Assembly: GCA_963801605.1 (NCBI GenBank)
Contig: CAWDFP010000007.1
Coordinates: 64,001 to 128,000 of the forward strand
Source of the DNA: an uncultured candidate division Zixibacteria bacterium
GTDB lineage: Bacteria > Zixibacteria > MSB-5A5 > UBA10806
DNA length: 64,000 bases
Reading direction: 5' to 3'
The translations under genes and the position numbers were made by a program. The first letter of the stretch is position 1, and each line of letters starts with the position of its first letter. The notes beneath the pieces were generated by a model. It worked only from the letters and a program-made list of their open reading frames with translations. It was not told the DNA's origin and did not search any database. Below, piece after piece: positions 25,269 to 57,090 of the stretch.

Positions 25269-26729
<1,461 letters not shown>

Positions 26730-27357: not shown

Positions 27358-29324
27358 ATGAAAGAGCAACAAGAGATAAAGACACTCGCCTTATCGCCGG
27401 TTATTCTGGTTGGCAATCCGAACGTAGGTAAATCGGCATTGTTTGGAGCTCTCTCGGGTAAATATGTCGAGGTTTCAAACTATCCGGGCACGACGGTTGA
27501 TTTTTCAGCAGGCTGGATTAAAGCCGATGGCCAGAGGCGCGAGATATTCGATTCACCGGGGGCCGATACCTTATCGCCGGTCTCCGAAGACGAAATCGTG
27601 ACCCGCGATCTGATCCTGGATTATCCTGATTCGCCAATAATTTATGTAATCGATGCCAAGAATATTATTCGCGGTTTGGTACTGCTTTCGCAGTTAGCCG
27701 AGTATAGGCGCAAGGTCATAGTGGCGCTCAATATGATGGATGAATCGGCGGCGGCCGGGACGGTTATCGATACCGCGGCTCTTTCAAGGGTATTAGGAGT
27801 CCCGGTTATTCCCACAGTGGCGGTTCAGAGATCGGGAATCGAGGAGCTTAAGAAAGCCATAGCATCGGCGGCTGTTCCCAATTTAGTATTCGATTTTGGA
27901 AAGATGATTGAAGATGGTATCACCCGCATTGCCGGAATACTGGGAAAAAAATCGAATAATTACCCGCGGGCTTTCGCTTAGTTATTTGAGCGGCGAAAAC
28001 GGGTTTTCGGATGAAATTAAAAAATATATATCGTCGGATAAGTTAGGGAATATTTCCGAAATCAAATCCCGACTTCAAAGCTCGCATGTAGAACCGTTGG
28101 GATTTATAATCGCGAAAACCAGAAACGTCGAAGCCCAAAGATTCCTGACGCCTTTTATTAAGCACAAAGAATCGGGTTCCGGGCGGTTTATGCGATCGAT
28201 GGGAAGATATTCGCATCATCCGTTATGGGGCATACCGTCTCTTTTGTTGATACTTGTGGGACTGTACTATTTTGTCGGGGTCTTTGGCGCTCAAACTTTG
28301 GTCGGATTATTCGAAAAGAAGTTGTTTGGCGGCTTCATCAATCCCTTTTTTATCAAGTTATTTTCATATTTACCCTGGGCTTTTCTGCGGGATTTATTTA
28401 TCGGTCAATACGGAATTATCACGATGGCGTTGACCTATGCCTTGGCGCTCATATTTCCAATCGTGACGACTTTTTTCCTGGCTTTCGGAATTCTAGAGGA
28501 TTCCGGATATCTGCCTCGTCTGGCGTTCATGGTGGATCGCATATTCAAGAAGATCGGCCTTAACGGCCGGGCCGTGCTGCCTATGATTCTGGGTCTGGGA
28601 TGCGATACCATGGCGGTTCTGACCACCCGGATACTATCGACAAAAAAAGAAAAACTGATGGTTACATTTCTTCTGGCGCTGGCGGTACCCTGTTCGGCAC
28701 AACTGGGCGTCACGCTTGGTATCCTGGGAGCAATATCGCCGCTGGCTATAGCAATCTGGCTGGGAGTGATTCTGGCGGTTATGTTTTTAGTCGGATATTT
28801 ATCATCAAAAGTAATTCCAGGGCGGTCATCCGATTTTATTCTGGAGATCCCGCCGCTTCGCCTGCCGCGATTACAAAATGTGATTGTTAAGACTCTAATG
28901 CGTCTGGAATGGTATCTTGAAAGAGGCGGTCCCGCTGTTTGTTCTGGGGACGTTGATCCTTTTTATACTCGATAAGCTCCATTTTCTAAAATTAGTGCAG
29001 GAGGCGTTTAGTCCAATAGTGGTTACCGTACTTGGTCTTCCCGCGAAAGCATCCGAGTCATTTATAATGGGCTTTTTGCGGCGCGATTACGGGGCAGCCG
29101 GTTTTAAGGGATTATTCGATCAGGGGCTGCTCGATCCGGTGGGGGCGATTGTGGCCATGACCACGATCACATTGTTTGTCCCCTGTATCGCCAATTTCTT
29201 CGTGATCGTAAAGGAGCGGGGCGTTAAAACGGCTATCGGCATGGTTTTGTTTATTATTCCTTTCGCAATAGCTGTGGGAGGAGCCTTGAATCTCATTTTG
29301 AGAGGATTTGGGCTATGGCAGTAA
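27358..29324 (+). CDS. feoB: Ferrous iron transporter FeoB, two apparent frameshifts (near 27945 and 28920)
   Basis: GNPNVGKS, NYPGTT, DSPG, NMMD, LEDSGY, GLGC, PCSA, FILEIP. Confidence 0.92.
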
Positions 29325-45416: not shown

Positions 45417-45774
45417 TTTCTATTTATTCATAATTTGCTCGAACTACTTAATGTTTGCGAAAAATGGCGGGATGTCAATAACGATTTTTTAATTAAATCA
45501 ATTTAATGATAAATCATAATTGGAGTTTGCTAATTAAAATGCGAAGGGGGGCTTATATTTATATTAATTCGGTTATTAAGCGATACCTGCATGGTAATAA
45601 CATTTTGCTTGTAATTTTGCGATTTTTGGGCTATAATTAACGTGGTAATGATTATCTTCGATGCCTGTCGAGGTTGTGTTGATCAGAATTGGAAATTGCA
45701 GTAACGGAGTCTTTAATTTCGCAAGGTTTTCGCATTTTCATATAGTGGTACCTTAGTGGAGATTGGAGGTAGAT

Positions 45775-48700
45775 TTGAAAAGCTCTACACTTGTGTTTGT
45801 CATCCTGCTGGCCCTAACAGGGTTGGCGTACCCCGCTCAAACGGTTAACATAGGCCTAACGCCATCGGGGGCGGAGCTTCTCTTTCAGGATCAATCCGGA
45901 ATTGACCTGCGAGTAGATGTGGGGGAATTGAATTTCGACGAAATCAATACCTCTGAAGGGCAATTTATCTTGATCACGTCCGACGGATTGGGAAGCTCTC
46001 AGAATATAGGTGAGCCTAACCTGCCGATATTGAATCGTCTGATTTCAATCCCGTATGGATGCGAACTTCAGTGCGAAGTTACCAGTTCGGAATACCAGGA
46101 TATTTCGCTTTCAGATTTGAATTTGACCAATCCTATTATGCCCGTACAGCCGCCGCTCTCAAAAGGAGTTGATCCGGCGACGGTTCCTTTTGAATACAAT
46201 CGAAGCGTATACCAGCAGAGCGGCTATTATTCTCAGCAACTGGCGTCAGCTCAGATTCTTGGCGTGATGCGCGCGATGCGAATGGGATTGGTTTCAATAG
46301 CTCCGATACAATATAATCCGCTTGAAAATACTCTTCGAGTTTATAAAACGGTAACCGTCCATATAAGCTATCTTCATCCGGATTGGACAACCACCCGTCA
46401 AACCTGGGAGCGCCTTGATTCGCCAGTCTACTCAACAGTATATGGGCAGGTATTCAACTATGTTGGTCAAGAATCAATGCTGCTCGAAGACCATACCAGA
46501 TACCCGATAAAATATGTAATCGTTTCGCCGAGAATGTTCGAAACTCAGCTACAACCATTCATTCAATGGAAAATTAAAAAGGGTTTTAAGGTCGTAGTCG
46601 GTTATACGGATGTCATTGGGACGACCAATACAGCCATAAAAACATGGATTCATAATTTGTACGATGCCGGCACTCCGGACGACCCGGCGCCATCGTTTGT
46701 GCTGCTTGTCGGTGATGCTCAGCAGATTCCGCCGTTTTCATTCAGTACTCACATCTCCGATCTCAGCTTTTGCGAATTTACCAATGATACTTATCCCGAG
46801 ATATATTATGGGCGTTTCTCAGCGCAGACGGTCGCGCAACTGACTCCTCAAATAGACAAGACTCTGGAATATGAAAAATATCTGATGCCCGATCCCAGCT
46901 ATCTGGGCAGGGTTACTATGATCTCCGGCGTCGATGCTAATTACGCTCAGCATCAAGGCAATGGGCAGATCAACTATGGAACCCGCTATTATTTCAATTC
47001 AGCTCATGGAATCACGTCCAATACCTGGCTTTATCCGGCCTCAAACGGTAATGTGGAAGCCGCCATTATCGCGACGATAAATAGCGGCGTAAGCTTCATC
47101 AACTACACCGCTCACGGCTCTCATGATGGTTGGGCCGATCCATCGCTATCAACATCCAACGTCAACGCGCTTACTAATGCGCATAAATATACATTAGCGG
47201 TGGGAAATTGTTGTTTGACGAATACCTTTGGAACCGATTACTCCGACCCGTGCATGGGCGAAGCCTGGCTACAGGGAGCTAACAAAGGAGCTATCGGCTA
47301 TATCGGGGCATCCAACAACAGCTACTGGGATGAGGATTATTATTGGGGAGTTGGATGGCATACCGTAATTGACAACGGTCCCGACTATGATCCGACTCGT
47401 CTGGGCGCTTATGATGGCGTTTTCCATACTCATGGCGAACCTGTCAGCCGTCATTATGTGACCAACGATGCCATGCTTTATTGCGGCAATTTGGCGGTTA
47501 CCCAATCGGGTTCAAGTATGATTGCCTACTACTGGCAAATTTATCATCTGATGGGCGACCCCTCGGTAATGACTTATCTCGGCCTCCCAACGACTAATAA
47601 TGTAGTGCATACGGGGTCGATGCTCTTTAGCGGCACGACATATACAGTTCAAGCCGATCCCGGCTCATACGTGGGTATCTCTCTCGATGGTGTCCTGCAT
47701 GGGGCGTCATATATTGATTCATCAGGATCGGCTAACATTACGCTTGATCCATTCAGCGGCCCGGGTACAGCGGATATCGTGGTAACCGCTCAAAACCGGA
47801 TTCCCTATACCGGAACGATTCAACTAATTGCGCCATCCGGCCCGTTTGTAGTATTCGACAGCAGCAGCGTAAACGATGCCACCGGCAACAATAATGGGAT
47901 CATCGATGCCAGCGAGCATATAATTTTGGGTGTACGTCTGAAAAATGTGGGACCTGATACGGCCCACGCTGTTTCGGCGACCCTGGCCTGTACAGATACT
48001 TTTGTAACCGTAACTGACAATACCGAATCGTATGGTGACATTATTGGCAATAACGGAACCGTAAACAGGCCGAGCGCTTTTGCTTTCAATGTTTCAGGAA
48101 GAACTCCGGAAAATCACAATATTTCATTCCAGATCACAATGACGGATGATGCCGCTCATAACTGGAACGGCACAATTTCCCTGCCCGTTCATTCGCCGGC
48201 GCTAAGTTATGCGTCGATCCAGATAAATGACGGTTCCGGCAATAATAACGGGGCGCTCGATCCCGGCGAAACCGCTCAGCTGGTGGTAACGCTTCAAAAT
48301 AACGGTTCCGGCCAGGCTTTTGCAATTACGGGTATCCTTTCCGAAAACGATACATATATCAGTTTAGGCGATGCCAACGGTACTTTCGGAAATATACTTG
48401 CCGGAGGAAACGGTAATAATTCCGGCGATCTATTCTCCATAACTGCCAGTTCATCTTGCCCGCTGGGTCATACCTTTAATTTAATTCTGGCATTAACCGG
48501 AGCCGACGGATATGTAACATCCGTGCAGATTCCCATGGTAGTAGGGATTAGAGTGCCGATTTATACGGATGATTTTTCGACCAATCGAGGCTGGACCGGT
48601 CTTGGCGGTCTTGGGCAATGGACTATTGGAGCCTGCACGGGCGGCGCCGGCAACGATACTCATGGCGGTCCCGATCCCTCTGTCGATCACAGCCCGACAA

Positions 48701-49762
48701 GCGACAATAAAGTACTGGGAACAGATCTGACCAGCGGAACCGGAGGGGATTACGATTCCAATTTGACGCAAACCTATTGGGTAACATCCCCAACAATAGA
48801 CTGCTCCAATTACAGCGGTGTTCAATTGCAATTCTACCGTTGGCTGGGGGTGGAACGCGTATTATATGATACCGCATATCTTCAGGCTTACAACGGCAGC
48901 GCCTGGGTAACTCTATTCCGCAATGATTCCACGCTGGATGAATCTGCCTGGATTTTGCGAACGCATAATATTTCATCGTATGCCGATCATAATGCAAATT
49001 TCAAGATCAGATTTGGAATCGGCGGCTCAGATCACGCCTGGCAGTTCTGCGGTTGGAATATCGATGATATTTTAATCAACGGATATCAGGAAGTTGCTCC
49101 GGGGAATCCTGATCTTTCACTTTCGATAAATAGTCTGGCAGATACCCTGGTTCAGGGCGATTCGGCCTCACACTCGTTCAAAATATACAATGGGGGAACG
49201 TCCGATCTGCGGATAACATTTAACTGCACGGCCGCATGGGTTAGATATTCGGGTAATCAAATTACGGTACCGGCTAATGACAGCGCCAATTATTCGTTGA
49301 CGCTTCGTTCCGCCAGCCTTTCGCCCGGGCCGTTTGCGACTATCGTTAACCTATGTCTCCAACGATACCGGTAATGCCTCGGGGTCAATCCCGATCAGTT
49401 TGTTGGTCAGGCCGGTTGCTCCGCCTCAGTGTGAATATATCCTGGGTGACGTTAATGGAAATAACGTCTTTAATGGTTTGGATGTAACTTACGGCGTTGG
49501 TTACTTCAAAGGTGGAATCCCTCCGCCATATAGCTGCGAATGTCCGGCGGGAAGCGGTAATTACTGGTTTGTCGCTGGCGATATTAACGGCAGCTGCTCA
49601 TTTAATGGCCTGGATGTAACTTTTATGGTAGCTTATTTCAAGGGCGGCGGCGTTTTAACCACCTGTCCTGATTGTCCATCGTCAGGAATATTGAAAGCTC
49701 CGCAACAACCTATCTTAGTACCTACCGCAAACCAAACCAATGGGAGTGGATCGTCGGAATAG
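45775..49762 (+). CDS. Gingipain-like C25 cysteine peptidase with dockerin-like tail, frameshift near 49345
   Basis: Propeptide GEPNLP, LLVGD, YGRFSA, YTAHG (His), GNCC (Cys), LMGDPS; GGAGG RBS with TTG start. Confidence 0.88.
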
Positions 49763-49795
49763 AAACGTAGAAACATTATAAGATTCAGATTTTGG

Positions 49796-49832
49796 CAACC
49801 GAGGGTAATAGATACCCTCGGTTGTTTTTTTG
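49796..49832 (+). terminator. Intrinsic terminator
   Basis: CAACCGAGGGTA/TACCCTCGGTTG + T-run. Confidence 0.9.
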
Positions 49833-49923
49833 ATGCCCCTCTAATCAGAGGAATTTATATGGCAATAACTTACATCTAACAGCAAAAGCGATTGATTAAG
49901 TAGATTCCCTTGATTAAGCCTCC

Positions 49924-49998
49924 AAAAAAGTAAACCGGACAGTCTTTACATCTAACTGCCCGGTTCTTCCCCCTTTAATATAGCCCCCCCTAATTACG
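49924..49998 (-). ncRNA. Candidate small RNA of about 75 nt
   Basis: Minus-strand TTGACC-16 nt-TAAATT promoter (50031-50004), G-rich body, hairpin + T-run. Confidence 0.35.
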
Positions 49999-50273
49999 AC
50001 CCTAATTTACCACAAAGCTCTTTATGGTCAAGACTAATAAAGTCGGTAGGGAATAGGTATATCGAAATACGCAGTAAATAAGGGGATAAAATATTTCGTT
50101 ATACAAATCGGAATGAGATTAAATCGAGCTGGGTGCTTATGGTTATCGAATAAGATATTGGATAATTTTCAACGATCCGATTAATTTTTTATTTTGAAAA
50201 TTGCAATAATAATGAAATCAAATTTATGCAATTAATAGCGCTGAGAATTGGTCTTAAATCTTTTGGGAAAATA

Positions 50274-50351
50274 TGGGGTGGGAGATGGGATTTGAACCCA
50301 CGGCCCCCAGGGCCACAACCTGGTGCTCTAACCAACTGAGCTACACCCACC
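50274..50351 (-). tRNA. tRNA-His(GTG)
   Basis: G-1, loop TTGTGGC, GGTTCAAATCC, C discriminator, CCA. Confidence 0.93.
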
Positions 50352-52628: not shown

Positions 52629-53891
52629 ATGAAATTACGGATATTAATTTGGGGACCGATATTTCTCAGCCTGATCGCGTTCCACCTGGCCTGGAGCAGG
52701 GGAGAGAACAATCCACGCGCGGTTGGCATGGGCGGCGCCTATACAGCCCTGGCGCGGGATCTCGACGCTCCCGATTGGAATCCGGCCAATCTGGGATTAT
52801 CGGACGGTAAGGGATTTACAATAAATTTCTTTAATCTGGGCATGCGTGCAAAAAATAACAGCTTTTCGCTCGACGATTACGAACGGTATAACGGCAAGTT
52901 TTTGACTGATTCAGATAAAGATGAAATCATAAATTCGATTCCCTCAACCGGTCTGGGTTTGGACCTGACCGCGGAAGCCTCGGCATTTAATTTTTCAATC
53001 GGAAATTTCGCGGCTACTTACAAGGCAATCGGAGTGACCAGTTTCTCCATAGATAGAGATCCGTTCAAGCTGATGCTGCTGGGAAATGCAGTCGTACATG
53101 AAGTTTCGGTATCGGATACGAGGGGCGAAGCGTTTGCCTTAGGAGATTTTGGCCTTTCTTACGGACAAGCAATTCGTCGCTGGCCGGGAGGAGAGCTATC
53201 GGTTGGGGCGAGCGTTCATTATCTCAGGGGAATTGCTTATGCAGGAATATCCGAAGCTCTCGGCGGGGTGATAACCACCGATACCGGTTTCGTCGGCTCC
53301 GGGCAGATGATCTATCACACGTCCAGGGGCGGCGATGGATATTCCTCGGATCTCGGCTTAGCCGTAAGATTTTCCGATGATTGGTTTTTCTCGGCGGCCT
53401 GGCAAAATGTATCGAGCAAGATCAATTGGCGAAAAGATAATGAGGAATATCGGATGTGGTTTGAAATGAAACCCCTGACCGCGGAGAGCATGCTTGATGA
53501 AAACCGCGCCGATTCAATGGTGACCTCAAATGATACATCCTACAACTATGGAGCGTTCTCAACGCGATTAGCGCCAGCAATCCGGATGGGATTGGCCAAA
53601 AAATGGAAACGGTTCGCCTGGTCTTTAGACTGGGAGCAGAATCTTTTCAGCGGCCCGGGAACCGGGGTCAATCCGAGGATTGCCAGCGGGCTGGAATACA
53701 AGCCCTGGCGTCATTTGCCGCTCAGAACCGGATTAGCGTTCGGGGGCAATCAGGGATCGATATATTCAGTGGGATTGGGATTAATTTTTGGGCCATATAA
53801 TCTCGATTTAGGCCTGGCCAATTCAGGGTCGCCATCGCCGACACATACCAAGGGGGTTCGGTTAGCTTTTGCAATGAGTCTGCGATTTTAA
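52629..53891 (+). CDS. Outer-membrane beta-barrel (PorV/FadL/TraF-like N-terminus)
   Basis: PRAVGMGGAYTALARD....WNPANL; terminal Phe. Confidence 0.7.
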   Translation: MKLRILIWGPIFLSLIAFHLAWSRGENNPRAVGMGGAYTALARDLDAPDWNPANLGLSDGKGFTINFFNLGMRAKNNSFSLDDYERYNGKFLTDSDKDEIINSIPSTGLGLDLTAEASAFNFSIGNFAATYKAIGVTSFSIDRDPFKLMLLGNAVVHEVSVSDTRGEAFALGDFGLSYGQAIRRWPGGELSVGASVHYLRGIAYAGISEALGGVITTDTGFVGSGQMIYHTSRGGDGYSSDLGLAVRFSDDWFFSAAWQNVSSKINWRKDNEEYRMWFEMKPLTAESMLDENRADSMVTSNDTSYNYGAFSTRLAPAIRMGLAKKWKRFAWSLDWEQNLFSGPGTGVNPRIASGLEYKPWRHLPLRTGLAFGGNQGSIYSVGLGLIFGPYNLDLGLANSGSPSPTHTKGVRLAFAMSLRF

Positions 53892-54069
53892 GTATCAGGT
53901 CAATTCCATAGTTATTTTGTCGATAATAGTATTGACGCCCGAATGGCGCTAATATTTGGGAAATTCAATAAAGCATAGAATTGATGATAATCGAGCTCGA
54001 ATTGCGAATTAGGCGCTTAAATTAATAAATTAACCGGGTAAAAAAAATAAAGAAATCTATTATTTTTGC

Positions 54070-54098
54070 TTGCAATTAATAATCTGGCATGATAATAT
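54070..54098 (+). promoter_or_regulatory. Sigma70 promoter with extended -10
   Basis: TTGCAA-17 nt-TAATAT with TG at the extended position. Confidence 0.55.
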
Positions 54099-54661
54099 CT
54101 GTTTCAATCTGCGTTGGATGCTATCTTATGTAGTTAAGAACGGCGTTCAACCTGAGAATCCGATAAATAGCTGCATTCATTTGAGCTGTTTAGCGGCGGT
54201 TCTTCCCAGGTCGGCAATTGCTATGGCCTATTGACTCGGTTGTGGGATATCGGGGTCTTTTCCGGGGATACCGCATATGAATCATAATTGATTATCTTGG
54301 CCTGATTTACTTTGTTTATTGGGAACGAAACATACGCTGATATTGTTAGTATAATGCATTAGAGAATACTAACTACTGCCAAAATAACAGCGGTTTTTCT
54401 ACAAGAAGTTCTAGTATACGGAGAAGGGGCGACCGAATTGCCGAACTTCGAAGGTCAGTGCCAGTAAATTGAAAGTATAGGTATTTTACGGGGCAGAGGG
54501 GCTGTGTCGGAGTCTATAACAGAGGATTTGAAGTTAAAGAAGTAATAAAACAGGTTAATTGTAAGTTTTCGAATCTTTCAGGTAAGCTTAATTGATATAA
54601 GGGGATAGACGATATCGGAAATCTCTGATATTGACGGAAGTGTAACTGAAAGCAGATATTA
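54093..54661 (+). ncRNA. Candidate large structured RNA (about 570 nt), family unknown
   Basis: Complementary ends and many internal helices with G-U pairs on the + strand; no long ORF. Confidence 0.55.
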
Positions 54662-54717
54662 GGAAAAAAAATAATGGCCCATATATGATAGATGGCACCA
54701 TGAAGGAGGCAACCAGA

Positions 54718-54915
54718 TTGGTTGAAAAAACCCAGGAAGTAGACAAGGAATCCAAGGAGATTCCTGCCCAGAAGGATGAGAGTCGTCAAGACGACCAGAG
54801 TCCAGAGGTGAACCATGAGCGTATTGCCAGGATGAAAAAGGCTTTTCGTCCAACATGGCTTCACGACCAGATTAATTCCAACGGCAACGGTAAAGGCTCC
54901 GTCAAAAAAGACTAA
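54718..54915 (+). CDS. Small charged hypothetical protein (65 aa)
   Basis: AAGGAGG 8 nt before an in-frame TTG within the tracked 76-aa ORF. Confidence 0.55.
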   Translation: MVEKTQEVDKESKEIPAQKDESRQDDQSPEVNHERIARMKKAFRPTWLHDQINSNGNGKGSVKKD

Positions 54916-55133
54916 AAAATAATCCTTGACTTTTGACCTGGAGGGGTTAATCATTAATAAGCGGGCATATAATATGCAAGCTCTTTGAGAAGTTTTCTAA
55001 GGGTTCACGTTTCGTATTTGGAGCTTGATAAATTAGAGAAGCTCTCAGAGATCGAAAAAAAATTAAAGCGGTCTTATGTATTAGGTGTCTTCTTACCCCC
55101 TCCGGAAGATATTTGAGGCTAAGGCCGCAAAAG

Positions 55134-55161
55134 AGGCCCCGTAATGGGGCCTTATTTTTTT
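55134..55161 (+). terminator. Intrinsic terminator (likely bidirectional)
   Basis: AGGCCCC/GGGGCCT + T-run. Confidence 0.85.
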
Positions 55162-55170
55162 GGGGTATTT

Positions 55171-56274
55171 TTATTCCTTAGTGGTGAATTTAATAGGATA
55201 TATAATCCAAACCGGCAGATTTATACCATTGGAGGAGGCCGGGATAAAAAGGCTTTCTTTGGCGGCTTTGATCGCGGATTCCTCGAAACCGACGCCGGGG
55301 GCATCACAAGATACAATCTCCGCTTGTTTGATGGTACCATCGCTTTCCACGCGCGCCCGAACCATCAAGGTACTTGAAAGGCCGCTCTTCTTAGCCCATT
55401 CCGGATATTCGGGAATAACCATTTTCACAGCCGTGGGCGCCTTTTCAACAGTAACGATTACGCTTGATTGCGGCAAAGCAACCTGAACGGAGCCAGGAGC
55501 GGCGTGATAATCCGCCATCGATGCCTGGCGCGATTGCTTGTCGGGCACCATACGAGCGTCAGCCATTGTAAAAGCGCCAACGCTGACGGTATCCCCAGGC
55601 TGCAAAACCGTATCGGCCACAAAACCGAGGGAGGTTGGCTGTTTTGCCGGCGCTATTTCCATAGCCAGGGTTTTTCCCGAATCGGCAGTTGGTGCAGGAA
55701 TAACGGCGATTAACTCACCTGGTTTCTCCGATGTCAAAGCTTTCGCAACGGTAATCTCTTGGCGAGGCGCTTTCATTTTCGGAGCGGGTGCGGCAGGCGC
55801 TTTGTTACCCGCGGGTGTTTCAGCGGGTGGAGAAGGCAAATTAGCGCGATTCAATTCGAGGTTCAGTACCCTATACTCATCGCCCCCGACTTTATCTTTT
55901 TGGGTAATCGTCATTGGCGTTTGAATCTCACTTAAATCGGAAATCGATTTTACCAGGAATAAGACAATCGAAGCCGCCAATGCAAAAGAGAAAGCCATCC
56001 GAAGCGAATATTTTTTGGATATCTTTTCCGGAATTATCACGGGAGCTATCTGACCCCGGATTTTTCGCATGACGGCAGCGTCAAAAGCGGCGCCATCAAT
56101 TGCAGACATGACCTGCCTGCCGTGGTCCGCGGAAACCTGAAGCGCTTTGATATTCAGGAATGCTTCGCTGCACTCAGGGCACAGAGCCAAATGCCGATCC
56201 AATTCGGCTTTTTCAGAGGGCGAAATATCCGGATATAACCAGAGCAGCCTATCTATTTTTTTGCAATCGCTCAA
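55171..56274 (-). CDS. Zinc-binding anti-sigma (zf-HC2) fused to a TonB C-terminal domain
   Basis: HLALCPEC, one TM helix, Pro/Ala linker, PEYPEWAKKSG...F.PA...G. Confidence 0.8.
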   Translation of the reverse strand: MSDCKKIDRLLWLYPDISPSEKAELDRHLALCPECSEAFLNIKALQVSADHGRQVMSAIDGAAFDAAVMRKIRGQIAPVIIPEKISKKYSLRMAFSFALAASIVLFLVKSISDLSEIQTPMTITQKDKVGGDEYRVLNLELNRANLPSPPAETPAGNKAPAAPAPKMKAPRQEITVAKALTSEKPGELIAVIPAPTADSGKTLAMEIAPAKQPTSLGFVADTVLQPGDTVSVGAFTMADARMVPDKQSRQASMADYHAAPGSVQVALPQSSVIVTVEKAPTAVKMVIPEYPEWAKKSGLSSTLMVRARVESDGTIKQAEIVSCDAPGVGFEESAIKAAKESLFIPASSNGINLPVWIIYPIKFTTKE

Positions 56275-56834
56275 ACCAGATTACCTCTATTAATAAGTTC
56301 GGTCAATCGTTGCCTGGCCCTGAACAGCCGCGACATAACGGTGCCGATTTTAATCTTCAATATTTGGGATATCTCCTCATACCCATAATTGCCATAGGCC
56401 TTGAGCACCAACACTTCTTTGAGCTTGTCAGGCAGCCTCTCAATCGCCGTTTCCACGTCGGCCAACCGTTGGTTAGAATCATCGGAACTTGATTCAATTT
56501 TCGATTCCTGAGAGGCATCGAGTTCATTTATCTCGCGAAATACCCGGCCCCGTCTGGTATGCCGTCGGAGTCTGTCACGACACTCATTCATACTTACGCT
56601 GGCGGCCCAGGCCGAGAAATCCCGGGACTGATCGAAGCTCTTCAGGTGGAAATAAATTTTAACGAAACTGTCCTGGGCTGCCTCCTCGGCCTCGATTTTA
56701 TCTCCCAGCATCCGGTAGCAAATCCCCAAAATCCTCTGCCTGTGCCTTAAGAGAAGCTGCTCGAAGGCTTTATCGTCACCATGAAGAACCAGGCCGATAA
56801 GCTCTATATCCCGGATACTATCGCCCACGAGCAA
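56271..56834 (-). CDS. ECF sigma factor
   Basis: GDDKAFEQL, AEEAAQDSF, YEEISQIL..GTVMSRLFRAR. Confidence 0.92.
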   Translation of the reverse strand: MLVGDSIRDIELIGLVLHGDDKAFEQLLLRHRQRILGICYRMLGDKIEAEEAAQDSFVKIYFHLKSFDQSRDFSAWAASVSMNECRDRLRRHTRRGRVFREINELDASQESKIESSSDDSNQRLADVETAIERLPDKLKEVLVLKAYGNYGYEEISQILKIKIGTVMSRLFRARQRLTELINRGNLV

Positions 56835-57090
56835 GAGATTCCCTGTTTCTATACGTTTTGGAGTTGCGCTTATTCCCCATCGAATCGGGGACTAGCCGTT
56901 TCCATGCGCTAAATCTTGCATATAACATGGGTTATGGCAATATATTTTTTTACTTAGACAATCGCCCTGCTATAATTAGGAGCCTGGCGATCCCAATTCT
57001 TTGAGGTTGCGTATGTCCGGGAGTATCTATTATCATTGAGACTTAGTGGATAAATCCCAATAGCGAATAGGGGATAGGCAAATAGATAAT

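What the first reader, a model, noticed from the sequence alone, without database searches (positions are those of the whole stretch)
54070..54661. Large (~570 nt) end-paired structured non-coding element with its own promoter
Seen: TAATATCTGTTTCA (54093-54106) pairs with TGAAAGCAGATATTA (54647-54661). Internal helices include GTTGGATGCT/GGCGTTCAAC (54113/54142), CCTG-AGAATCCG-TAAATAGCT/AGCTGTTTA-CGG-GTTCT-CAGG (54151-54210), long-range TCGGCAATT/AATTGCCGA (54211/54436), CGCTG/CAGCG enclosing GTTAGTAT/ATACTAAC, TAAGTTT/AAGCTTA and GATATCGG/CTGATATT. Wobble pairs consistently favour the + strand. I see no RNase P, tmRNA, rRNA or group I/II intron signature. Known: OLE and ROOL RNAs are of similar size. 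Inference: a possibly undescribed large ncRNA or giant leader. The 5' arm overlaps the predicted -10, so a TA-flanked MITE is an alternative.
Basis: partly seen in the sequence, partly recalled or inferred. Interest (0 to 1): 0.78.

Follow-up and report, generated by a model that had tools for sequence, protein, structure and literature searches.

The report
Fossil protease gene kept as leader
This 600-base non-coding stretch is the decayed back end of a protease gene that most related bacteria still carry at the same spot, and it likely survives as a long leader with two predicted promoters for the small gene behind it rather than as a new large folded RNA.

Summary
The motifs are present, but the interpretation changes. 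In most relatives this slot, between a PorV-like gene and a conserved 65-aa ORF, holds an M6 metalloprotease gene. The element aligns in register with that gene's last 660 nt in 9 of 9 homologues (z 2.1-9.0; controls at most 2.8). The non-coding versions form one clade, show no codon periodicity and keep 553-658 of the ancestral 684 nt. Best conserved are a sigma70-type promoter (54070-54098) and an ECF-type promoter motif (54327-54354), both traceable to codons of the old gene. The end pairing is chance-level (47 of 500 shuffles), includes the -10 box and is absent from 8 homologues. RNAalifold finds no shared fold in 10 homologues. The element is single-copy with no empty site, so it is not a MITE, and it has no Rfam match. 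It is not inert: the 5' ~400 nt is more conserved than saturated synonymous sites, a 5' hairpin is predicted in all 9, and pairing is weakly preserved between close relatives. Verdict: an old gene relic likely kept as a two-promoter leader; a stand-alone mRNA-born RNA is possible but not shown.

The parts
53933..54671 (+). Relic of the 3' ~810 nt of an M6 (InhA-like) metalloprotease gene; reading frame destroyed; the 5' ~930 nt of the gene is missing
   Evidence: Local alignment to the G011 gene nt 936-1748, z 7.1; family DNA profile hit above all 300 shuffles; global test z 5.7
54070..54098 (+). P1, predicted sigma70 promoter (TTGCAA, 17 nt, extended -10 TG-N-TAATAT); in register with the ancestral codons V-E-N-R-Q-x-x-G-Y-D
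   Evidence: Exactly one such site in each of 9 full homologues; the intact genes of G004, G005 and G043 read TTGAAA-N17-TATGAT here (3 of 18); register
54113..54151 (+). 5' terminal hairpin of the predicted P1 transcript
   Evidence: A hairpin at p>0.7 starts within about 15 nt of the predicted start in 9 of 9 homologues; the first 60 nt has mean z -1.5 against -0.3 in 8 intact genes
54151..54210 (+). Second hairpin (inner stem 54164-54192); the G001 stem differs by two A-U to G-C double changes
   Evidence: compensatory changes read by eye from the G000/G001 alignment; not shared in the same form by deep lineages
54327..54354 (+). P2, predicted ECF-sigma promoter motif GAAAC-N16-AGTATAA; the best conserved block; in register with the ancestral codons G-T-E-T-S-V-S-V-V-S-I
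   Evidence: Found in 10 of 10 homologues that cover it, with 16-17 nt spacing and a variable spacer; highest synonymous-identity window of the intact family genes, 0.58 against 0.43 overall; resembles the own promoter of an ECF gene on contig C6, GGAAC-N16/17-xGTATAA in 21 of 21
54322..54400 (+). Hairpin overlapping P2 (CGCTG/CAGCG, GTTAGTAT/ATACTAAC; basal GGGAAC/GTTTTT)
   Evidence: Weak covariation: 74% of cells paired, 10 of 500 shuffles as high; covariation score 125 of 500; consensus energy -0.19 kcal/mol
54487..54701 (+).
   Evidence: z -0.4 to 1.9 against the intact genes in 9 homologues; z 0.2-3.8 in 3 of 4 close pairs
54703..54915 (+). Shine-Dalgarno (54703-54709) and a conserved 65-aa ORF (TTG 54718), motif ERIxRMKKAFxPxWL, no known family; likely the gene the leader serves
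   Evidence: 22 of 24 genomes of the order; 67 homologues, the named ones from Zixibacteria; no Pfam or NCBIfam hit; a 99%-identical metatranscriptome contig covers 54726-55051
54926..55160 (+). Downstream unit: predicted promoter P3, relic of a small lipoprotein-like gene, conserved hairpin with a CCCCCTCC loop (55096-55103) and an intrinsic terminator (55133-55160)
   Evidence: covariation in 23 sequences, 0 of 500 shuffles as high

Best explanation
The element is the decayed 3' end of an M6 metalloprotease gene, and it likely persists as a ~610-nt 5' leader because it carries two predicted promoters that drive the conserved small ORF and the RNA element behind it. Shown: the intact gene sits at this slot in most relatives; the element aligns in register with its last ~650 nt; the non-coding versions form one clade; two promoter-like motifs are the best conserved blocks and map onto ancestral codons. 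Inferred: one old deletion removed the 5' ~0.9 kb of the gene. A sigma70 promoter latent in the V-E-N-R-Q-x-x-G-Y-D codons (P1) and an ECF-type internal promoter already under synonymous constraint (P2) were kept, so the small ORF has a housekeeping start and probably an envelope-stress start. The P1 transcript gained a 5' hairpin that would stabilise it, and lineage-specific hairpins over the 5' ~400 nt, while the last ~200 nt drifts. The end-to-end helix is a chance feature of this genome.
For: Synteny: of 22 order genomes with the small ORF, 17 have a long ORF ending within 154 nt of the match, 3 have the 700-830 nt non-coding region and 2 have short gaps. The ORF is Peptidase_M6 with a FlgD-Ig/sorting tail. 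Homology: 9 of 9 elements align to the last 660 nt of 6 intact genes at z 2.1-9.0; the 27 control comparisons (5' part, middle, reverse complement) gave z -1.8 to 2.8. Single loss: 8 non-coding loci are one side of a 95/94 branch of the PorV-like protein tree; identity between deep non-coding lineages is 0.36/0.32/0.34 by codon position against 0.67/0.76/0.39 among intact genes. Spacing: P1 to SD is 553-658 nt against 684 in G004, P1 to P2 is 238-274 against 278. Promoters. The pattern G[GA]AAC[AT]-N15-xGTATAA has 4 matches in the genome, all 4 intergenic. Two defined the pattern; the other two lie 48 and 63 nt before predicted exported proteins, one of them cyclophilin-like by my reading. At the 9 other spacings 2 of 13 matches are intergenic. 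The only strong terminator found in 53800-55300 is at 55133.
Against: No start site or transcript end was observed. With a weight matrix built only from the 21 ECF promoters, P2 ranks 97th of 6.1 million positions, a score that 73-106 sites reach at each spacing tested, so its sigma factor is not established. P2 also contains TATAAT in several homologues. The 5' ~400 nt outside the promoter boxes is more constrained than a mere spacer needs: it still resembles the intact gene (segment A z 1.6-6.2 in 8 of 9; segment B z 2.1-13.1 in 8 of 9) although four-fold sites in the neighbouring gene are saturated between deep lineages (0.21-0.37). Pairwise consensus folds of the 5' part beat column shuffles in 3 of 4 close pairs (z -2.9 to -3.6), and the 9-way 5' alignment gave z -5.2, but at only -8.4 kcal/mol (SCI 0.12). 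Two other lineages (G009, G016) lost the gene without keeping the leader.
Confidence: 0.6

Rival explanations
1. The 5' ~400 nt has been exapted as a stand-alone structured RNA, made from P1 and cut or terminated near 54480-54700, with its own trans-acting or scaffolding function: a large analogue of OxyS-type mRNA-born sRNAs.
For: Nucleotide constraint outside the promoter boxes exceeds synonymous sites (close pairs 0.58-0.80 identical over this part; four-fold sites 0.33-0.56 in the 3 pairs with data). Predicted pairs were kept more often than the null mean in 8 of 8 directional tests, 3 of them at 34-48 of 1000. 5' hairpin in 9 of 9. Double changes at the P2 basal stem. The adjacent lipoprotein-like gene went the same way and left an RNA element.
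Against: No shared fold across lineages (0 pairs; SCI 0.04-0.12). 18-40% of predicted pairs are broken even between close relatives. Whole-length z is -0.3 to +0.1 in 3 of 9 homologues and overall no better than the coding ancestor. No strong terminator before the ORF.
Confidence: 0.2
2. Inert relic: only the promoter DNA is selected, and the rest persists because deletion is slow in this lineage.
For: The genome has 116 gaps of 600 nt or more without an ORF of 100 codons. Deep-lineage identity is about 0.34. Most 60-nt windows have mean folding z near 0. All homologues are 4-19% shorter than the ancestral distance.
Against: The 5' ~400 nt is conserved above synonymous sites while the last ~200 nt is not (the reference domain is itself less conserved there). 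None of 9 homologues has a large deletion between P1 and the SD.
Confidence: 0.16
3. An old, ornate large ncRNA of the OLE/ROOL kind, closed by a terminal helix.
For: Similar size; own promoter; z about -2.4 in this genome.
Against: No match to any Rfam model in the window or in 9 homologous loci. No consensus structure. Terminal helix not conserved. The sequence descends from a coding gene and was found in one clade only.
Confidence: 0.03
4. A TA-flanked MITE with terminal inverted repeats.
For: 12-nt arms, 92% complementary, 545 nt apart.
Against: One copy in the genome. The arms are chance-level and absent from homologues. Relatives carry a colinear gene, not an empty site. Nothing in viral contigs for the linked ORF.
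Confidence: 0.01

Closest known systems
Bacterial sRNAs born from protein-coding genes: OxyS from a peroxidase gene, STnc240 from gabT, STnc3230, EcsR2 (PMC8825220; 7 passages read)
   Same: A non-coding transcribed unit occupies the syntenic slot of a lost gene and descends from its 3' end; low sequence conservation after release from codons.
   Different: About 600 nt, against about 65 coding nt plus 3' UTR for OxyS. It runs from a promoter inside the old coding sequence, has no terminator of its own and is predicted to lead into the next ORF. A discrete RNA and targets are not shown.
Bacterial gene relics whose internal promoters serve the downstream gene (general knowledge, recalled)
   Same: Frame destroyed, colinear decay, promoter motifs the best kept parts.
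   Different: It is old (neighbouring synonymous sites are saturated) yet keeps 81-96% of the promoter-to-SD distance, and its 5' part is under constraint.
OLE (RF01071, 616 positions) and ROOL (RF03087, 574 positions) large ornate RNAs (search listings and abstract starts of PMC12286853, PMC9723947, PMC3413148)
   Same: Size and an own promoter.
   Different: No model match, no conserved intricate fold, no long conserved sequence blocks beyond promoter motifs, and a demonstrable coding ancestor.
ECF sigma-factor promoters (AAC in -35, CGT in -10, often autoregulated; PMC8103513, 11 passages read)
   Same: P2 has AAC in the -35 box, a 16-17 nt spacer and GTATAA, like the own promoter of one ECF gene of this genome.
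   Different: The -35 reads GAAAC or CGAAC rather than GGAAC; it differs from the GGAAT-N16-CGTAT motif of the ECF gene encoded next door; the cognate sigma is not established.

Membership tests
Gene relic (pseudogene) of an M6 protease gene | Intact gene at the syntenic position in relatives | tested here: met
   17 of 22 have a long upstream ORF; those fetched are M6 proteases
Gene relic (pseudogene) of an M6 protease gene | Colinear, same-strand nucleotide homology to the intact gene | tested here: met
   9 of 9, z 2.1-9.0; controls at most 2.8
Gene relic (pseudogene) of an M6 protease gene | Reading frame lost, no codon-level constraint | tested here: met
   No codon periodicity; best profile hit of 27 frames E 0.029, this genome E 4.1
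Gene relic (pseudogene) of an M6 protease gene | Neutral decay throughout | tested here: not met
   The 5' ~400 nt is conserved above four-fold sites; only the last ~200 nt drifts
mRNA-born sRNA (OxyS type) | Derived from the 3' end of a lost coding gene at the same locus | tested here: met
mRNA-born sRNA (OxyS type) | Own intrinsic terminator defining a discrete RNA | tested here: not met
   Only a weak 6-pair candidate at 54235-54254; the strong terminator is at 55133, behind the ORF
mRNA-born sRNA (OxyS type) | Discrete stable transcript and base-pairing targets | not testable with these tools
   Only contigs were available, no raw reads
OLE / ROOL large ornate RNAs | Match to the family covariance model | tested here: not met
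   genome-wide searches were also blank, but their controls rang nowhere, so those two are weak
OLE / ROOL large ornate RNAs | One intricate secondary structure conserved with covariation | tested here: not met
   0 consensus pairs in 10 homologues; the same tools detect covariation in the 3' element. Caveat: the alignment is only 46% identical
OLE / ROOL large ornate RNAs | Very high expression as a discrete RNA | tested here: inconclusive
   Low-depth contigs only
MITE | Multiple dispersed copies | tested here: not met
   One copy in 3.06 Mb, genome 87% complete
MITE | Terminal inverted repeats shared by copies, target duplication, empty site | tested here: not met
   Arms at chance level and absent in 8 homologues; relatives hold the ancestral gene
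ECF-dependent promoter (P2) | -35 AAC, fixed 16-17 nt spacer, conserved -10 | tested here: met
   10 of 10 homologues
ECF-dependent promoter (P2) | Match to the motif of a particular ECF sigma factor of the genome | tested here: inconclusive
   One -35 mismatch to the C6 ECF motif; rank 97 of 6.1 million, with similar counts at wrong spacings

The most novel reading that the evidence does not exclude
The 5' ~400 nt is a large structured RNA caught in the act of being born from an mRNA. An internal promoter and chance hairpins in a protease coding sequence were kept after gene loss and are being refined independently in each lineage. The same operon has done this twice: the adjacent lipoprotein-like gene left a C-rich anti-SD RNA. 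This would be a traceable coding ancestor for a several-hundred-nucleotide bacterial ncRNA.
Probability: 0.17. Interest if true: 0.75.

Novelty: new variant of a known kind. Interest (0 to 1): 0.38.

Why it matters
It removes a false candidate for a new OLE/ROOL-class RNA and shows how such candidates arise: an old gene relic with its own promoter and a G-rich strand folds plausibly. It is also a clean natural series of intact gene, relic and clean deletion at one locus, in which promoters hidden in codons outlive the gene and the freed sequence stays partly constrained long after synonymous sites saturated. That makes it a testable case for how leaders and ncRNAs arise from coding sequence. 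The better RNA candidate is next door: a C-rich-loop hairpin conserved with covariation across the order and not in Rfam.

Tried and rejected
Rfam scans of the window, the region and 9 homologous loci: nothing for the element. The tmRNA lies elsewhere in the genome. OLE, ROOL and 6S models found nothing genome-wide (only the 6S control rang). BLAST of the element against 61 relatives and 285 phylum genomes found only G001 convincingly; the other homologues came from synteny. Viral contigs: no relative of the small ORF. CsrB-like sponge: about 11 GGA in 570 nt by eye, near chance; dropped. Pairing of the leader with the downstream C-rich loop: not significant in any of 9 (34-186 of 300 shuffles as good). 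The neighbouring ECF sigma as driver of P2: its own motif is GGAAT-N16/17-CGTA(T) in 20 of 21 orthologue loci read (one masked), which differs from P2 in both boxes. Protein-level traces: tblastn found none for G000-G002 and one 53-aa patch at 47% in L097. Expression: none of the 6 runs laid had a contig on 54070-54670. The organism is barely present in them (depth 2-5, contigs only), so this is no evidence of silence. One search had a pattern error (3 training sites) and was redone; only one search is used. The protein atlas did not hold the small ORF. Literature searches showed no paper on this locus; the one paper holding both 'Zixibacteria' and 'noncoding RNA' is on another organism (listing only). 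No supplements were read. Earlier scan findings: none near or like this stretch.

Full report
Setting. The element lies between a 420-aa PorV-like/DUF5723 gene (52629-53891, +) and a 65-aa ORF (TTG 54718-54915). Further on come a predicted promoter, a hairpin, a terminator, and a convergent ECF sigma and anti-sigma-TonB pair. Named homologues of the small ORF and named loci are from Zixibacteria. The element is single-copy in the genome and has no Rfam match.

Observation. The listed motifs are present. The + strand folds at z about -2.3 to -2.5, which 2 of 14 other long gaps and 2-3 of 7 homologous coding segments also reach. The strand preference is explained by composition. The terminal helix is reached by 47 of 500 shuffles, begins with the -10 box and is not found in 8 homologues.

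Homologues. BLAST found one other carrier, G001, at 79% over 122 nt. Synteny did better. The small ORF was found in 22 of 24 genomes of the order. In 17 of these a long ORF ends within 154 nt of the match, in 3 (the genus of this genome) there are 700-830 non-coding nt, and in 2 (G009, G016) a 126 or 359 nt gap. The long ORF is an M6 metalloprotease with a FlgD-Ig/sorting tail. A metagenome scan gave 15 loci. After dropping duplicates (L084 and L085 = G001, L089 = G002, L093 = L092, L095 and L096 = L094) and L091 (21 nt upstream only), I had 9 full-length homologues including this genome and 2 partial ones. L088 does not reach P2 and was not aligned.

Origin. The spacer hit the 3' part of the protease gene in nhmmer. 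A DNA profile of the family's genes hit G000 and G001 above all 300 shuffles each and did not hit G002. In pairwise local alignments 25 of 27 fell in the 3' half of the gene in one register, with recognisable codon blocks such as G-M-L-I-W, E-W-W-P, G-D-P-F-P-G and S-G-T-x-T-S-V. In a global test all 9 elements matched the last 660 nt of 6 intact genes (z 5.7 for this genome; range 2.1-9.0), while the 5' part, middle and reverse complement gave -1.8 to 2.8. The protein signal is essentially gone (best E 0.029 in L097). On a tree of the upstream protein the 8 non-coding loci with that gene are one side of a 95/94 branch (two of them long-branched), and the two clean deletions sit elsewhere. Identity between deep non-coding lineages shows no codon periodicity. 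One old loss is the simplest reading (inference).

What is kept. Each of the 9 full homologues has exactly one sigma70-type site, P1, 553-658 nt before the SD, against 684 in the intact G004 gene. P1 is in register with codons that read TTGAAA-N17-TATGAT in 3 of 18 intact genes; given codon usage that count is not clearly above chance, so P1 looks like a latent promoter that was recruited. The strongest block is P2, GAAAC or CGAAC, 16-17 variable nt, then (A/G)GTATA, in 10 of 10. In the intact genes of the family this 25-codon window has the highest synonymous identity (0.58 against 0.43; 6 related genomes, not independent), so P2 probably predates the loss. Two ECF genes of this genome have strictly conserved own promoters: the neighbour, GGAAT-N16/17-CGTA(T), and one on C6, GGAAC-N16/17-xGTATAA in 21 of 21 readable loci. 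P2 resembles the second, with one mismatch in the -35 box. A pattern covering both has 4 matches, all intergenic, two of them independent of its definition. A matrix trained only on the ECF promoters ranks P2 97th of 6.1 million, with similar numbers at wrong spacings. So 'ECF-type promoter' is likely and the cognate sigma is open. A third ECF gene (C6:8640) has a TGAAAC-N17-CGTA site upstream and is another candidate. General ECF promoter features are from PMC8103513 (passages).

Structure. RNAalifold on 10 homologues predicts no pair (the alignment is 46% identical, which limits power). As a positive control the 3' hairpin element gives -11.5 kcal/mol over 23 sequences, with 32 double-change cells and 0 of 500 shuffles as high. 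Within the element only the first 60 nt after the predicted start is consistently structured (mean z -1.5 against -0.3 in the coding ancestor; other windows -0.6 to +0.3), with a 5' hairpin in 9 of 9. The stem around P2 has weak support (10, 23, 35, 125 and 424 of 500 on the five measures). Whole-length z values are -2.4, -2.6, 0.1, -1.4, -0.3, 0.1, -2.4, -3.8 and -1.8.

Evidence against plain junk. Four-fold sites of the upstream gene are saturated between deep lineages and even between G000 and G001 (0.21-0.37), yet the ~215 nt between the promoters and the ~130 nt after P2 still resemble the intact gene in 8 of 9 homologues each, while the last ~200 nt does not. The reference domain is itself less conserved there, but 3 of 4 close pairs show the same drop. 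Between deep non-coding lineages the first segment is no longer alignable (z -1.5 to 1.5), and the second is in 3 of 10 pairs (z above 5). Close pairs keep predicted pairs slightly more than the null in 8 of 8 directional tests, 3 at under 50 of 1000, with 18-40% of pairs broken. Pairwise consensus folds of the 5' part beat shuffles in 3 of 4 pairs. This is weak, local, lineage-specific constraint, as expected of a structured leader or a young RNA, not of an ornate RNA.

Expression. Only contigs were available. One metatranscriptome contig, 99% identical, covers 54726-55051, the small ORF and the start of the downstream unit; it was the only piece at 99% or more in that run over 20 kb. DNA in the library cannot be excluded, and nothing can be said about ends or levels.

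Mechanism. Most likely (0.6): P1 (housekeeping) and P2 (ECF, probably envelope stress) make long-leader transcripts for the 65-aa protein that run on to the terminator at 55133-55160; a 5' hairpin would protect the P1 transcript; selection on both promoters and some local structure has kept the relic. Rivals are a stand-alone mRNA-born RNA (0.2), an inert relic (0.16), an OLE/ROOL-type RNA (0.03) and a MITE (0.01).

Comparison and novelty. It works like the coding-gene-derived RNAs described in PMC8825220 (OxyS, STnc240, EcsR2; passages read) in origin, but it fails the terminator test and is about six times longer, so I do not file it as an sRNA. It fails the OLE, ROOL and MITE tests. My searches showed no paper on this locus. 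Verdict: new variant of a known kind; interest 0.38.

Noticed in passing
window 54926-55160 (+): Conserved RNA element not in Rfam: a hairpin with an invariant CCCCCTCC (anti-SD-like) loop followed by an intrinsic terminator, with covariation in 23 sequences across the order. In many relatives it is the 3' end of a small lipoprotein-like gene whose RBS and start codon overlap a conserved TTGAC-N17-TAATCAT promoter; here, in G004 and in several others that ORF has decayed while promoter and hairpin remain. The loop is complementary to the GGAGGGG kept in that promoter's spacer in 7 of 9 homologues. Probably a better sRNA candidate than the finding itself.
   Followed up: partly
window 54718-54915 (+): 65-aa protein family with the motif ERIxRMKKAFxPxWL, in 22 of 24 genomes of the order and also seen in two other families of the class; 67 homologues, no Pfam or NCBIfam family. 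All four runs had their near-identical contig on this ORF, but they were found with this stretch.
   Followed up: partly
window 56851-56876 (-), upstream of the ECF gene 56271-56834: Strictly conserved autoregulatory-type promoter GGAAT-N16/17-CGTA(T) in 20 of 21 orthologue loci (one masked); 5 intergenic matches in this genome suggest a small regulon. The anti-sigma is a zf-HC2 protein with a TonB C-terminal domain.
   Followed up: partly
G000:C6:991081 (L125), C6:1691743 (L126), C6:1804826 (L127): A second ECF gene with the own promoter GGAAC-N16/17-xGTATAA (21 of 21); similar sites precede a lipoprotein-like gene and an exported cyclophilin-like gene (protein labels are my reading of the sequences).
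   Followed up: partly
window 49763-50277: The gap after the dockerin-like ORF holds a long hairpin and C-rich tracts; 49925-49987 is 83% identical in G001, and an 87%-identical metatranscriptome contig covers 49670-49977. Possible second small RNA.
   Followed up: no
window 25269-26729, 27358-29324, 45763-49762; G000:C1:14253-15579: Several genes are split into overlapping frames (IMP-dehydrogenase-like, FeoB-like, the gingipain-like gene, an M6 paralogue on C1; labels are my reading), which suggests indel errors in this assembly. The element's non-coding state does not rest on this assembly alone.
   Followed up: no
G000 whole genome: No 6S RNA match (control rang in 5 of 14 genomes; genome 87% complete), and 116 gaps of 600 nt or more without a long ORF, one at C6:1891051-1891809 folding at z -5.0.
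   Followed up: no
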